Assembly (NCBI GenBank): GCA_038046625.1
Contig: JBBSVV010000011.1
Coordinates: forward strand, 6,121 to 16,830
DNA: 10,710 bases
Reading direction: 5' to 3'
Source of the DNA: an archaeon
GTDB taxonomy: Archaea > Iainarchaeota > Iainarchaeia > Iainarchaeales > Iainarchaeaceae
Positions 3,001 through 9,000 of this stretch are shown here, piece by piece; position 1 is the first letter of the stretch; every line of letters begins with the position of its first letter. A program made the position numbers.

Positions 3001-6000
3001 TAAGCCCGCCGCTCCACGCGTGGATTTCCCTGCTGATTATTCTGGTTGTGCACGAGGCAATGCACGGCGTTCTTGGAAGAAGGCACGGCTTCAAAATAAA
3101 ATCAACAGGAATACTTCTCCTCGGTTTTCTCCCTATAGGGGCGTTTGTTGAACCTGACGAGAACCAAGTGAAGCGCGCAAAGGCCGAAAAGGTGCTGCCT
3201 TTCCTTGCTGCGGGGCCCATGGCTAACATTGTTGTAATGCTTTTCTCCATTGTGGTTGTTGTGGGTTCAATGGCTGCGGTTGTTCCGCTCACTAATAATT
3301 TTTACCCAGGGCTTCTGGACAATGCATTTACAGGAGTGAAAATAAGCGAGGTTCTTGAAAAAACCGAGTTCTGCGGCTCGGTTTTCCCGTCCTCAGCGTT
3401 CGGAAAATTCGAGACAGGGGACACAATAAAAGAAGTGAACGGCGTTGCGATAACCGGGCCGAGGCAGCTCGTCGAACAGCTCCAGAAAAACCGGCTCATG
3501 CCAAAAACTTTTTTGCTTGAAAGGAACGGGCAGGAAATTGAAATGGCGCTGCAGCCGAATGCGCTCGGCCAGTTCGGTTTCGTTCCCGAACCCATAAGGA
3601 ATGAATCGCTGCAGGTCCCCGAATCCTATTCAGCGTATGCCACTGCGGTTGATTTGTTTGTCGAGTTCTTCTTCTGGCTGTTGTTCCTGAATTTCTCGGC
3701 GGCCGCACTCAATTTCCTTCCCATGAGCCCTTTTGACGGCGGGCGCATGGCAAAAATATTGTTCGCGCCTTACATTTCATTCACGGGAAAAACAAAAGAG
3801 CAGAGGCAGAAACTAATCGGCAAATTCTTTTTGTTTTTGGTGCTCGCGCTCTTCATAATCAATGCGTTGCCGCTGTTCTTCTAACACCTTTTTCTTTCCT
3901 TTAACAAGGAAAGAAAAAGCTGTACCAAAAAGAAAGGTGTAAAAAAGAAAAGGAACTGCTCTGCTGTGCCAAAAAGAAAAGTGTAAATTCTGTGCGAAAA
4001 AAAGAAAAAGAAAGTAAAGGCGAAAGCCGCCTTTACCTCAAATAATCCAGGTCGAATGGGTCCTTGTCAACCCCGGAGCTCCTTCCGCTTCCTTTTCCGG
4101 CCGCTGCCGAACTTGGCCCCTTGATGTACGGGCTGGAGACTCCTGTGAAGATTGTTATGACCTCAATCTTGTTCTCGAATGTCGGGTCAACCCTCGAACC
4201 CCAGATGACAGTTGCTTTAGGATCGATTCTTTCCGTGAGCATTTCTCCAATCTGGTTGGCTTCTCCGAGAGTCAAATCAGGGCCCCCGGTTATGTGGATG
4301 AGCGCTCCTGTTGCTCCCCCGATGTCGACATCAAGGAGTGCGTTCTTCAAAGTGTCTTCGACAACATCATTGACTCTGTCGACTGACTTTGATTCGCCAA
4401 CAGCAATCACTGAAAGGCCCTTGTTGCTCATTATTGAGCGCACGTCCGCGTAGTCGAGGTTGATGAGCGAGGGCTGCGTGATTGTTTCTGTTATTCCGCG
4501 CACTGTTCTCGCAATCACTTCATCGGCCACCTTGAATGCATCCTGGATCGGGAGGTTAGGCACCAATTGCACGAGCCTGTTGTTGTCAATTACAACTACA
4601 GTGTCCGTGACTTCGCGCAATGATTCGATTCCCTCCTCAGCCTTGATTAGCCTTGCTTTTTCAAGCGCGAAAGGATAGGTTACTATTGCAATTACTATTG
4701 CACCCTGTTCCTTCGCGATTTCCGCTATGATTGGCGCGCAGCCTGTTCCTGTTCCCCCGCCCATTCCCGCGCTTATGAACAGCATGTCAACTCCGTCAAG
4801 GATTTCTTCCAAGGCGCTTCGGGATACTTCTGCCGCCTTTGCGCCTATTTCGGGGTAACCGCCTGCCCCCAAACCGCGTGTTACCGACTTTCCTATTAGT
4901 ATCTTGGTTAGTTCATCGCTGATTATTGCCAGGTGCTGCTTGTCCGTGTTTACTGCAACAAGCATTGCTCCCGCAACACCCATATTTGCGAGCCTGTTGA
5001 CTGCGTTACAGCCGGCTCCTCCCGCTCCGATAACCATTATTTTCGGCGTTCCAAACTCCTCGAGCTTGTCATCCTTCTTCTCGGCGGCGGTATTCACTGC
5101 ATTTTCCACTATAGACTTCATTGGTTTCACCCCATTTTTATCTGGCTTTTGTCATTTTCAACAGAAAAAAGCTTGATTCTACTATCATTGCTGCAAACCT
5201 CCTTAATATACGTTCACTTTTATGTATAGAACCCGCATAACGCTCCTTTTTACAACAGGTGCCGAAAACAAGCCCCTTTCCTTATGTAGAATTGTTAATT
5301 TTTTCATTTTTTGCCAAAAAATGTTAATATGGCTTAACATAAGCTCTTTATCGCAAAAAAAGTGTTAAAATCCTCTTGTATTGGATTTTGGGGCGTCTTT
5401 TTGCTTTATTTTCTCGTTTTTTTCCAATTTTTTTGGTGTTTTGGTTTTAAATAGTGGTTGCGCCCATTATATTTCGGGCTAGGTTGGGGAAGTAGCGGTA
5501 CCCCTGTTGCCTGAAATCCCGCTTTAGCAGGAACCGAATCCCTAGGGGCGGTCAATTCTGGGCTGTAGCGCCAACCCTTTACAATGACCTTCTGTCCCTT
5601 GAGATTGCTTGGCCGAGCCAACCCCGTGAGGCCCGGAAGGGTGCAGCGGTAACTTTGCTTTTCAATGCTTAAGGCAAACGGAAGCAAGGACGGGCTTGGG
5701 TTAACGCTTCAGCTCCGGATTCGATCCACTTTAGGGAGTGCCCACTGCACTTTCACGCAGAATCTTTGATTCTGCTGGAACCTGCACTAAAAGAAAAGAT
5801 GCCGGAGTCGACTAGCAAAGAAAAAGAACCGCCGCGCTGTACTTAGCTAATTAAAAGAGTGAAAGTTTTCAGGCGCCTACTCAAACCCGGTTTGTGTCAT
5901 CCTGGCTATTTCCAAGATGAAAACATCCTTTCGCCTTTCATCCATCGGATACTTGCTGACTATTTTTAGTATGAAATTTCTTGACAATTCAGCGTACCTT

Positions 6001-9000
6001 TGTATGTATGCCCGGTCATAGGACTTGCCGTGTATTCCCAATTCCCTGAAGCTTGTCACAATCCACCTGTAGTCTTCAGACAATATCTTTGCCGCTTCCT
6101 TCGGGTTTCTCCAATCAATTTTCACTTCGGAAGCATATTTCAAATCAATTACCCCGATGCGCGACTTTGATGCCACGAGGTTCAGGAAGTGAGGGTGGTT
6201 ATGGAGTATTCCAATTGAGTGCATTGTCCCGATAGTCCTTGCCGCTGAAGAGAGCAGTCTCCTCAACTGCCTGTTCGCGGAAGGATTCTTTCCTTGAATA
6301 GATAACAGTCTTCTTAACGCGCCCATCAGGCTATTTTCATAAACGCCTTTTTTTCTTGACCCAATCCTGGAAAAAGAAATAACTCCGGATTTCGATACAC
6401 CGACTATTTCAGGCACTAATATCCCAGCCCTTGAAAGCCTCTTTGATATTTTCAGAATTTCATCCGGGGTGTTTGTGTCATGGGAAGTTCTAAGCGCAAT
6501 GACCGGCCTTTTTCCCAGTCTCCCAAAAGACGAGTACCGAATAAAAGTCTTGCCCCTGGGGTCCCCGGCTTGTATTTTGCCCAGTAGCCGTGGCTCAGCA
6601 TCCCTTCCGGAAAGCCTGTTTGCCTTTCCCCTTCTGATTACCATGAAGAAAATGTCCCGCGAATTATAAATTAGTTGCGTTCACTCTTTGTGCTTTTCCT
6701 TCAGCGCCTGCGCGTGCTTTTCTGCGGCCTCAAATGCCTTGCGCTCGTGTCCTTCCGCCTTGCTTTCGTGGCGCGCAACAAGCCAGTCTTCGAGAGCGCT
6801 TATGCCCGGAATTTTGCTTTTCCTGCGTCTCTTTTCCTCGGCAATTTTGCGGTGCTCGTCACGCTTCACAATGTTCTCCCTGAACTCGTTGTAATGCTTC
6901 TCCGGCAAACCAAATCACCTATATAGCACAGGAAAGCTTTTTTTCTTAATAAGCTTTTTCCCGCGCAAAGCAAGCCCCTCAGCAACCCCAAAATGGCCCC
7001 GCGGTGCTCAGGCGCTTTTTTTCAGCTTTTTTGCCGCAAACCCGATTCCCGATGCGTATAGTGCGGCAAGGTTTGCCGCCACAATGTTCGCAAAGAAAAT
7101 GAACGTCGTGAAAACCGCAAAGGATGCGAACAGCCAGTAATAATTTGCGAGGAAGGCAAGGTATGGCACGCGCTCCGCAATGGAATCGAAGGTAACGAGC
7201 TGCTGCCCATTTTGCTTTTCCCTGATTTGCCGAACCAGTTTTTGCCTTGTTTCCGCGCTGTTTGTGCTCTGCTCTATAAGCGCCATTCTCTGCACGAAAC
7301 CTTTCGACTCCGCGTCATTGTTGTCCCGCAGTGCTTCAAATTCCGGCGTTGAAATTATATCTGAAACCGATTGCTTCCGCGCGTTCAAAAGTATGTCCGC
7401 TGACTGCCCTGAAATCGCGTCAACATTTGCGGGCGAGTAAGCCATCCCCATTACCGCGTCCTTGAAGTCCTGCGAGCCCGCTTCATTGTTCGTGCCAAGG
7501 CCGAACGCAACCGCAACAAACAAAAAAATCCCAAAAATGAGGAAGCCTGTTTTTGCGGAAGCGTAGCCCGTCCTGTAAACCACTAATGTTTTGAACTCCT
7601 CTTTCTTCACAAAGCTGTATTGCACCGCAGCAATAATTCCGGCCGCAAAGCCAGCCGCCACAAAAATTTTTTCCACGGAAAAGCCCGAGAGCGCCAGCAT
7701 TGCAATTATTCCGAGCACGGTTCCTGCAATGGATGCCATGAGCAATTGCTTTTTTTCGAGCGAGTGGCTCAGCCCTGAAACAACGCCAAAGGAAACAGGG
7801 AACAAAAGCGCGAAACCAATGAAGCCCGCACTTGTAATGGCGGATATTATGCCTGCAAAGCCATCATTCGGGTTGAACAATGCGGAAGCGTTCAGCCCGG
7901 TTGACTGGAAAAGCAGGGCGCTTGCGGCTATTGAGAGCGCTATTGCAAGGGCTATTGCGGCCATTTCACGGAGTTCCGGGCCTTTTTCCATATAGCTTCT
8001 ATAAACGGTTTTGATGTTTAAATGCTTTGCCGGCGGGCCGCTGGTTAAGTATTAAAAAGGTATTCGAAAACACTTAGTAGAGAAGGAAATGCTCTTTCTA
8101 CAATTGTGCCTTCGTAGCTCAGCAGGTAGAGCACCCGACTGTTAATCGGGTGGTCGTAGGTTCAAATCCTACCGAAGGCGCTCATTTTCATGCTGCGCAC
8201 AGTTATGCTTATTTTTCCAAAAATGAATTCGGCTTTCAAGCAATTTTACTTGCTTGAAAGCTTTTTGCTTTTCACGTATACCCAGAGCTTTTTCGTCATT
8301 TCCGAGGGCGCTATTTTGCCCGAACCGAAAACCGATTCCACGCTGTCCGTGCATCCTTTGAAGCAGATGTTGTATCCGCCAAATGCTGGTTTTGCCATTT
8401 TTTAGTCCTCCCAAAAAGTTTGCATTCAATAAATGCTTCTACAATAAAGACTTTTGATTATTTAAATCTTGCATAGTAGTGCTTTTTGGCAAAAACAGGT
8501 TTTTTGCGGGGCTCTTGCAGTTATCCGCTCTTGTGGGCCGCGGCGGATATGGTAAAAAGAAAAAATAAAAAATAGTTTTTGGCTCGAGACTTTACTCAAC
8601 CACTACTTGCCCGAATTTTGTGGCATCGGTGTGGTCGTGGAATCCCCAGCTTCCCTTATCATTGAATGTGAATCTGAAGCTCTCTCCGGGCGGTATGCCC
8701 CTGCAGGCGTCGAAAATGCCTTCCTGCTCTGCAGTTCCGCACTTCTGGATGTCGGAGCCCGGGTAAACCGTGTGGGTCGGGTGCTTTGCCGAAGCCGGCC
8801 ACCTGCCGGTTTCATATGAATTGTTCACCCATTTCACTGTGTCTCCCTGCTTTATGGTGACTTTGCCTGGCGAAAAGCCGTCCGCGGTTATTTCAATTAT
8901 GTATGTCTGCGGATTCTTGTTTTCTGCCGTGGCGCCGTCGCCATTCTGCTGTGCAGCCTGTTGCGTGCAGCCGCTCAGAAAAAGGGCTGCGGCCAAAACT

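What a model noticed while it worked through the whole genome (the two positions that open the first line are those of the whole stretch)
5877..6644. Bud32-like kinase family with histidine in place of the catalytic aspartate
g00350, unannotated by Pfam and Swiss-Prot, has a Bud32/RIO-type kinase fold whose catalytic loop reads HxHPHxxN instead of HxDxxxxN. The change is fixed in the family, which is patchy, non-syntenic and sometimes multi-copy in Iainarchaeales, and is separate from the genome's real Bud32.
Evidence so far: Model pLDDT 85, pTM 0.83; top Foldseek hits Bud32/PRPK, E 9e-8; Atlas structure neighbours are Bud32/Kdo kinases. In 29 aligned members H150, N155 and the Mg-binding D167 are invariant; 41 of 62 homologues have HxHPH and 0 have HxD[LP]. 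Profile matches 37 of 215 phylum genomes, up to 4 copies.
(Added by a program. Inside this text positions count along the whole contig: contig position 6,121 is position 1 of the stretch shown here. "Call 12" and the like, gene names such as g00115 and contig names such as C1 are that model's own, and its searches are not shown. The text may have been shortened before it was handed on; [...] marks where a part breaks off. The agent that wrote the report below was given it as the finding of a first reader that could run no searches.)

Follow-up and report, generated by a model that had tools for sequence, protein, structure and literature searches.

The report
Kinase-fold family with twin-histidine active site
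This tiny groundwater archaeon carries a real kinase-shaped protein from an undescribed, fast-changing family in which two histidines replace the usual catalytic aspartate and its neighbour, which may mean a new chemistry on the kinase fold or a non-catalytic kinase, and this has not been tested.

Summary
The ORF at 5877-6644(-) (255 aa) is real and has a Bud32/Kdo-type kinase fold (AF2 pLDDT 86; best structural match Bud32, Z 17.5). Its loop H148-N-H150-P-H152-x-x-N155 sits on Bud32's HGDLTTSN, so His replaces the catalytic Asp, and a second His sits two residues on. The family is wider than reported: members inspected in 62 of 215 phylum genomes, all in one order, up to 5 copies, no shared neighbours, separate from true Bud32. 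At 22% median identity D167 (127/127), N155 (125), H150 (114) and H152 (106) are kept, while the alphaC Glu is mostly lost. The change is NOT fixed: 9 of 127 carry Asp, scattered through the tree (His monophyly rejected, p-AU 1e-6). These mostly lose H152 and gain an acid at position 169 (8/9 versus 6/114), so the site switches between two coupled states. Best reading (0.45): an active enzyme with a rebuilt His/His/Asn/Asp metal-phosphate site. Main rival: a ROP5-like pseudokinase (0.35). Not found in ten paper searches; this scan noted the family twice before in other genomes.

The parts
5877..6644 (-). Gene for the 255-aa kinase-fold protein P0001 (stop included)
6180..6203 (-). Catalytic loop H148-N-H150-P-H152-F-L-N155; H150 (6195-6197, CAC) at the catalytic-Asp position, H152 (6189-6191) at the +2 (PKA Lys168) position, N155 (6180-6182) the metal-binding Asn
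   Evidence: sequence; alignment on Bud32 HGDLTTSN; His 114/127, His 106/127, Asn 125/127
6138..6146 (-). D167-L-K169, the DFG-equivalent; D167 is invariant; position 169 is mostly K/S in His members and D/E in Asp members
6072..6221 (-). Scaffold residues H142 (6219-6221) and D191 (6072-6074), equivalent to PKA H158 and D220, which with H148 form the conserved H-bond network
   Evidence: H142 104/127, D191 110/127; numbering scheme from PMC1821047 section 9; the equivalence is inferred from alignment
6429..6509 (-). N-lobe strand 46-52 (RPVIALR; presumed beta3, no Lys in it) and helix 60-72 (alphaC; Ile63 where Bud32 has Glu)
   Evidence: DSSP of the model; register count; the beta3 register is by eye, hhalign did not cover it
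6570..6644 (-). Basic, low-confidence N-terminal extension (net +5 in 25 residues; pLDDT about 50)

Best explanation
A member of an Iainarchaeales-specific radiation of small, basic kinase-fold proteins derived from the Bud32/RIO/Kdo cluster, whose active site was rebuilt rather than lost. Shown: fold, twin His at the catalytic-Asp and +2 positions, intact metal ligands N155/D167 and the H142-H148-D191 network, coupled change at 150/152/169. Inferred: N155 and D167 hold a divalent metal and the phosphates; H150 serves as general base or transient phosphoryl acceptor, or H150 and H152 hold a second, softer metal (Mn/Zn); H152 and K169 supply the positive charge that Lys168 and the beta3 Lys give in ordinary kinases. 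The reaction would be phosphoryl transfer or phosphoanhydride/phosphoester hydrolysis, plausibly on an acidic substrate such as RNA or a nucleoprotein. The biological role is least certain: fast divergence, patchiness and duplication fit an accessory or conflict gene of a host-dependent archaeon, not core metabolism.
For: The site residues are the most conserved columns at 22% median identity: D167 100%, N155 98%, H148 94%, H150 90%, H152 83%, against a median column top-residue frequency of 0.28. After thinning 127 rows to 81 under 35% identity: H150 72, D 7, other 2; D167 81/81. Position 150 is almost only His or Asp, both base or metal-ligand residues. Asp members have D/E at 169 in 8 of 9 (about 6 of 7 lineages) against 6 of 114 His members, and His152 in 2 of 9 against 102 of 114. 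Asp members are scattered (7 changes) and His monophyly is rejected, p-AU 9.5e-7. A catalytic-loop His at +2 takes part in ATP hydrolysis in PI3K (PMC4207468 passages). Divergence from the best same-genus match is 31% against 87% for Bud32.
Against: No activity data exist. The alphaC Glu is present in only 13 of 106 His members and 0 of 9 Asp members, against 15 of 15 Bud32; beta3 Lys is found by a loose pattern in only 50 of 106, and the query's strand has none, so canonical ATP anchoring is doubtful, even in the Asp members. ROP5 keeps HGH, Asn and the DFG Asp, binds ATP and is thought inactive (PMC4718504 passages), so conservation alone does not prove catalysis. His and Asp codons differ by one base, which makes switching cheap. 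In the IQ-TREE tree the starred branches force only one change. The 31% pair need not be orthologues. The basic N-terminus is weak evidence: Bud32 scores as high.
Confidence: 0.45

Rival explanations
1. A pseudokinase in the manner of Toxoplasma ROP5/ROP36: it binds nucleotide or metal without turnover and works as a scaffold, decoy or allosteric partner; the histidines are kept for binding.
For: Lacks the HRD Asp, which meets the sequence definition of a pseudokinase (PMC12599244 passage). alphaC Glu mostly lost; query lacks the beta3 Lys; one close relative (P0008) has lost most of the strands before alphaC. Asp-to-His is a recurrent pseudokinase change: ROP5 HG[R/K/H], ROP22 HTH, ROP36 HGH (PMC3682881 passage). 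Expanded, fast-evolving families of this kind occur in parasites.
Against: Two new histidines, not one, are held across 22% identity; position 169 changes with them; Asp forms with DF[DE] recur inside the family. No conserved partner gene in 74 loci.
Confidence: 0.35
2. A SelO-like nucleotidyltransferase: ATP binds flipped and AMP (or another NMP) is transferred, with D167 and N155 doing the chemistry.
For: SelO lacks the HRD Asp and uses the loop Asn and the DFG Asp (PMC8097203 passages); these are the two best-kept residues here.
Against: It does not explain why position 150 is restricted to His or Asp. From my own recall, SelO keeps the beta3 Lys and alphaC Glu, which are degraded here. The nearest folds are Bud32 and WaaP.
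Confidence: 0.12
3. A Bud32 paralogue that acts in or competes for KEOPS (Kae1/Cgi121).
For: Bud32 is the best structural match; 100 of 116 members hit TIGR03724 weakly; JGI/IMG labels some members Bud32 (3 of 23 listed proteins).
Against: All far below the 125-bit cut-off (best E 5.4e-13). GAEA-type loop 1 of 127 against 15 of 15, KxYR 7 of 127 against 15 of 15, C-terminal RxRY tail 0 of 127 against 13 of 15; that tail Arg is needed for t6A (PMC11621456 passages). A true Bud32 is present in 11 of 11 genomes tested. No KEOPS gene among 134 scanned neighbours at E 1e-8.
Confidence: 0.05
4. Decaying duplicates or a sequence artefact.
For: Two loci look broken: L015 is split and L013 is a fragment with a degenerate loop.
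Against: The gene is identical in independent assemblies; intact frames in most of 85 genes; active-site columns conserved.
Confidence: 0.03

Closest known systems
Bud32/PRPK, KEOPS kinase-ATPase (TIGR03724; PDB 4ww5, 3en9, 8unk)
   Same: Small PKL fold (Z 17.5, rmsd 3.1 over 200 residues); GIxVP motif, HxxGxxH stretch, loop Asn, DFG Asp, alphaF Asp.
   Different: HxHxH in place of HGDLT; DF[K/S] in place of DFG; alphaC Glu mostly lost; no GAEA loop, KxYR insert or RxRY tail; patchy, multi-copy and fast-evolving rather than single-copy and universal.
Kdo/WaaP/WaaY lipopolysaccharide kinases (PF06293; PDB 6dfl)
   Same: Same cluster of the PKL superfamily; WaaP Z 15.1; weak Kdo hits in 43 of 73 members; Atlas feature neighbours are Kdo-type clusters.
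   Different: Query below the Pfam cut-off; catalytic Asp replaced; archaeal, with no LPS gene context.
Toxoplasma rhoptry pseudokinases ROP5 (HG[R/K/H]), ROP22 (HTH), ROP36 (HGH)
   Same: His at the catalytic-Asp position with Asn and DFG Asp kept; expanded, variable family of a host-dependent organism.
   Different: Those are eukaryotic-type kinases with N-terminal extensions; convergent. The second His at +2 and the switching back to Asp are not described in the passages read.
SelO AMPylase
   Same: Kinase fold without the HRD Asp that keeps the loop Asn and DFG Asp.
   Different: No His pair (recalled); flipped ATP untested here.
PI3K/Vps34 DRH loop
   Same: A His two residues after the catalytic position takes part in ATP hydrolysis.
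   Different: PI3K keeps the Asp; only a distant fold relative.

Membership tests
Bud32/PRPK | Score above the TIGR03724 cut-off (125 bits) | tested here: not met
   22.5 bits; the genome's own Bud32 scores 198.7
Bud32/PRPK | Catalytic loop H[GN]DLTTSN with Asp | tested here: not met
   HNHPHFLN
Bud32/PRPK | GAEA loop, KxYR insert, C-terminal RxRY tail | tested here: not met
   1, 7 and 0 of 127 against 15, 15 and 13 of 15
Bud32/PRPK | Small Bud32-type PKL fold | tested here: met
   Z 17.5, rmsd 3.1, 200 aligned; Foldseek E 2.3e-7
Bud32/PRPK | Nested within Bud32 in a tree | tested here: not met
   53 family rows form a 97-support side apart from 6 Bud32 and 1 RIO1; only phylum-internal outgroups used
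Bud32/PRPK | Binds Kae1 and Cgi121 | not tested
   no complex prediction was run
Kdo/WaaP kinases | Score above the PF06293 cut-off | tested here: not met
   14.7 against 21.3 bits; 43 of 73 members hit at E<=0.1, best 3.2e-6
Pseudokinase (sequence definition) | Lacks the HRD Asp, beta3 Lys or DFG Asp | tested here: met
   HRD Asp is His; DFG Asp kept; beta3 Lys apparently absent in the query
Pseudokinase (functional) | No catalytic turnover | not testable with these tools
   needs an assay
SelO-like nucleotidyltransferase | HRD Asp lost, loop Asn and DFG Asp kept | tested here: met
SelO-like nucleotidyltransferase | SelO-type fold | tested here: inconclusive
   only the top 50 rows of the wide search are shown and Bud32/WaaP lead them
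SelO-like nucleotidyltransferase | Flipped ATP and NMP transfer | not testable with these tools
   needs a structure or assay

The most novel reading that the evidence does not exclude
The family is a kinase-fold enzyme that uses a His-x-His / Asn / Asp site (histidine base, phosphohistidine relay or Mn/Zn centre) for a reaction not yet known on this fold, and single lineages have repeatedly switched between this state and an Asp/DF[DE] kinase-like state. The proteins may belong to a wider set of basic-N-terminus orphans that these archaea use against hosts or competitors.
Probability: 0.3. Interest if true: 0.87.

Novelty: new variant of a known kind. Interest (0 to 1): 0.62.

Why it matters
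The catalytic Asp is the residue whose loss normally marks a kinase as dead, yet SelO showed that such folds can hide other reactions. Here a whole archaeal family holds two histidines in that loop and contains natural Asp counterparts, one of them a tandem neighbour of a His copy (L033, G002). That gives ready-made pairs for asking whether His can replace Asp in a kinase fold and what chemistry results. It also shows a lineage-specific enzyme expansion in reduced DPANN genomes that automatic annotation mislabels as Bud32.

Tried and rejected
Single-sequence AF2 failed (pLDDT 39.9). The word-index protein search found only the query or two proteins. The search for related loci could not build a pattern from A1 or A4. 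A degenerate DNA pattern that fits 32 of 144 held proteins found 15 stretches in 185,579 genomes: 9 were family genes already held from the phylum, 6 were bacterial and gave no family score or no in-frame motif; 0 in viral contigs. This is limited evidence for confinement to the phylum; the 73 metagenomic representatives carry no taxonomy (for 20 of them). Conserved gene context: none; the largest neighbour cluster covers 4 of 74 loci (geranylgeranyl-reductase-like), with flanks of only about 1.3-1.5 kb (134 of 225 neighbour ORFs scanned). A NifU neighbour occurs at one locus (L026). Defence-system link: only generic kinase hits in PADLOC, none for the query. Viral fold library: generic kinases, TM <= 0.49. 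SelO was not among the 50 rows shown, which excludes nothing. Expression: no RNA holder listed. Export-signal idea: family N-termini are basic (net >= +5 in 60% of 116 against 8% of 887 genome ORFs), and 14 of 20 hand-picked basic/Pro-N-terminus ORFs of this genome (from 66) lack a Pfam hit, but Bud32 scores as high and no background rate was measured; kept only as a lead. Reese and Boothroyd 2011 was not held.
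Full report
1. The gene. 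The ORF at 5877-6644 on the minus strand encodes 255 aa (P0001). It lies between the SRP RNA (5472-5747) and a 75-aa ORF, in a housekeeping stretch (PAN, M50 peptidase, FtsZ). Contigs of runs X1 and X2, from two studies and either possibly the source of the assembly, span the gene without a difference. Pfam gives only sub-threshold Kdo and APH hits; NCBIfam gives TIGR03724 at 22.5 bits against a cut-off of 125.

2. Fold and register. AF2 with the 73-row alignment A1 gave pLDDT 86.4 and pTM 0.84. Foldseek ranks Bud32 first (E 2.3e-7). The exhaustive VIA search gives Bud32 4ww5 Z 17.5 (rmsd 3.1, 200 aligned), then other Bud32 entries and WaaP at about 15, then RIO and APH at 11-12.6. Profile alignments put H148-x-H150-P-H152-x-x-N155 on Bud32 HGDLTTSN and D167-L-K on DFG. 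H150 thus occupies the catalytic-base position and H152 the +2 position (PKA Lys168; numbering from PMC1821047 and PMC4718504).

3. The family. The query found 73 representatives among 1.84 billion proteins and matches in 40 of 215 phylum genomes. Profile searches gave a continuum running into Bud32 and RIO1, so I fetched loci and read the loops. Inspected members lie in 62 of 215 genomes (85 genes); 58 genomes have a His member (75 genes); the maximum is 5 copies (nine loops classed by eye; lower bounds, since not every weak match was fetched and the search scores at most 13 candidates a genome). All 62 are in the window's order. Named records tie the lineage to Ca. Iainarchaeum. Neighbours are unrelated housekeeping genes; the largest shared cluster is 4 of 74 loci. 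True Bud32 is separately present in 11 of 11 genomes tested, and the family lacks its GAEA loop, KxYR insert and RxRY tail.

4. Conservation. The set of 144 distinct sequences held 15 Bud32, 1 RIO1 and 1 N-terminal fragment, which I set aside, leaving 127. At 22% median identity: D167 127, N155 125, H148 120, H150 114, D191 110, H152 106, H142 104 of 127. Thinned to 81 rows under 35% identity the picture holds. The N-lobe differs: alphaC Glu 13 of 106 His members with an intact N-lobe and 0 of 9 Asp members, against 15 of 15 Bud32; a loose beta3 pattern finds Lys in 50, Arg in 34 and neither in 22 of 106, and is prone to chance in such basic proteins. The query has Ile63 at the Glu position and no Lys in strand 46-52 (register by eye). 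Median pI is 10.1, against 9.7 for Bud32.

5. The change is not fixed. Nine of 127 carry Asp at 150. With the loop columns removed they are scattered: 7 changes in FastTree on 141 rows (3 short rows left out) and in IQ-TREE on 60 hand-picked rows. Starred branches force only 2 and 1 changes, but the AU test rejects holding the 44 His rows together (p 9.5e-7). Asp members carry D/E at 169 in 8 of 9 against 6 of 114, and His152 in 2 of 9 against 102 of 114; two pairs are kin, so about 7 lineages count, and the Fisher p of that call overstates. The exception (HNDPHIGN, DFK) is a tandem neighbour of a His copy and looks like a single recent switch. Repeated reversion from His is the simpler reading, but direction is not shown.

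6. Mechanism. A dead site should drift; this one is held to His or Asp and changes as a unit, which argues for a selected chemical role. I put 0.45 on an active enzyme with His as base, phosphoryl acceptor or metal ligand. Against this, the N-lobe anchors are degraded, and ROP5 shows that HGH with Asn and DFG Asp can bind ATP without catalysis; pseudokinase 0.35. SelO-like transfer 0.12, KEOPS role 0.05, decay 0.03. The substrate and biological role are inference only.

7. Literature. Ten searches gave no description of this family; 'HGHPH' with 'kinase' gave 0 papers. The library lacks most subscription journals, and no supplements were read; the supplementary tables of large pseudokinase surveys could list members. 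Seen: PMC1821047 passages and sections 9 and 14 without tables; passages only of PMC3682881, PMC4718504, PMC12599244, PMC11621456, PMC8097203, PMC4207468; all others as listings. Reese and Boothroyd 2011 was not seen. The scan's notes e1-2598374 and e1-3199325 report the same family in other genomes; they are not independent support. The link to an iron-sulfur operon in the second was seen at one locus only (L026).

8. Verdict. Real, undescribed in what I could search, and a new variant of the protein-kinase-like fold; not a member of Bud32. Interest 0.62.

Noticed in passing
window 5740-5806 (+): A roughly 65-bp hairpin-type element directly after the SRP RNA 3' end; a 91% copy follows tRNA-Arg at G000:C3:28298-28365 and partial copies lie on C18, C15, C36 and C48. 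It resembles the repeats beside tRNA genes noted earlier in this genome (e1-7534678, e1-1066087); identity with them was not checked.
   Followed up: partly
G000 contigs C5, C25, C44, C50, C6, C3, C13 (L168-L185): A set of Pfam-less ORFs with basic, proline-rich N-termini like those of the kinase-fold family (14 of 20 hand-picked have no Pfam hit); possibly a shared export or RNA-binding leader; no background control.
   Followed up: partly
window 6681-6908 (-): 75-aa highly charged ORF just upstream on the same strand, no Pfam hit.
   Followed up: no
window 8246-8398 (-): 50-aa stand-alone SWIB/MDM2-like protein (E 0.0013, below cut-off).
   Followed up: no
window 113-1201 (+): 362-aa ORF with a signal-like N-terminus, a Gly/Thr/Ser-rich linker and a Cys-rich C-terminal part; no Pfam hit; likely a surface protein.
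   Followed up: no
L148 459-1580 (+), L150 804-1874 (-): Longer family members (357-374 aa open frames) with an N-terminal helical-repeat-like extension (HEAT-like by eye) before the twin-His kinase domain.
   Followed up: no
L033 666-2097 (+), L105 1098-2934 (+): Tandem pairs of family genes; in L033 one copy has His and the other Asp at the catalytic position.
   Followed up: partly
L163 346-969 (-): A 208-aa RIO/Bud32-like protein whose catalytic loop reads HGQLGGKLKN, another Asp-lacking kinase fold in this phylum.
   Followed up: no
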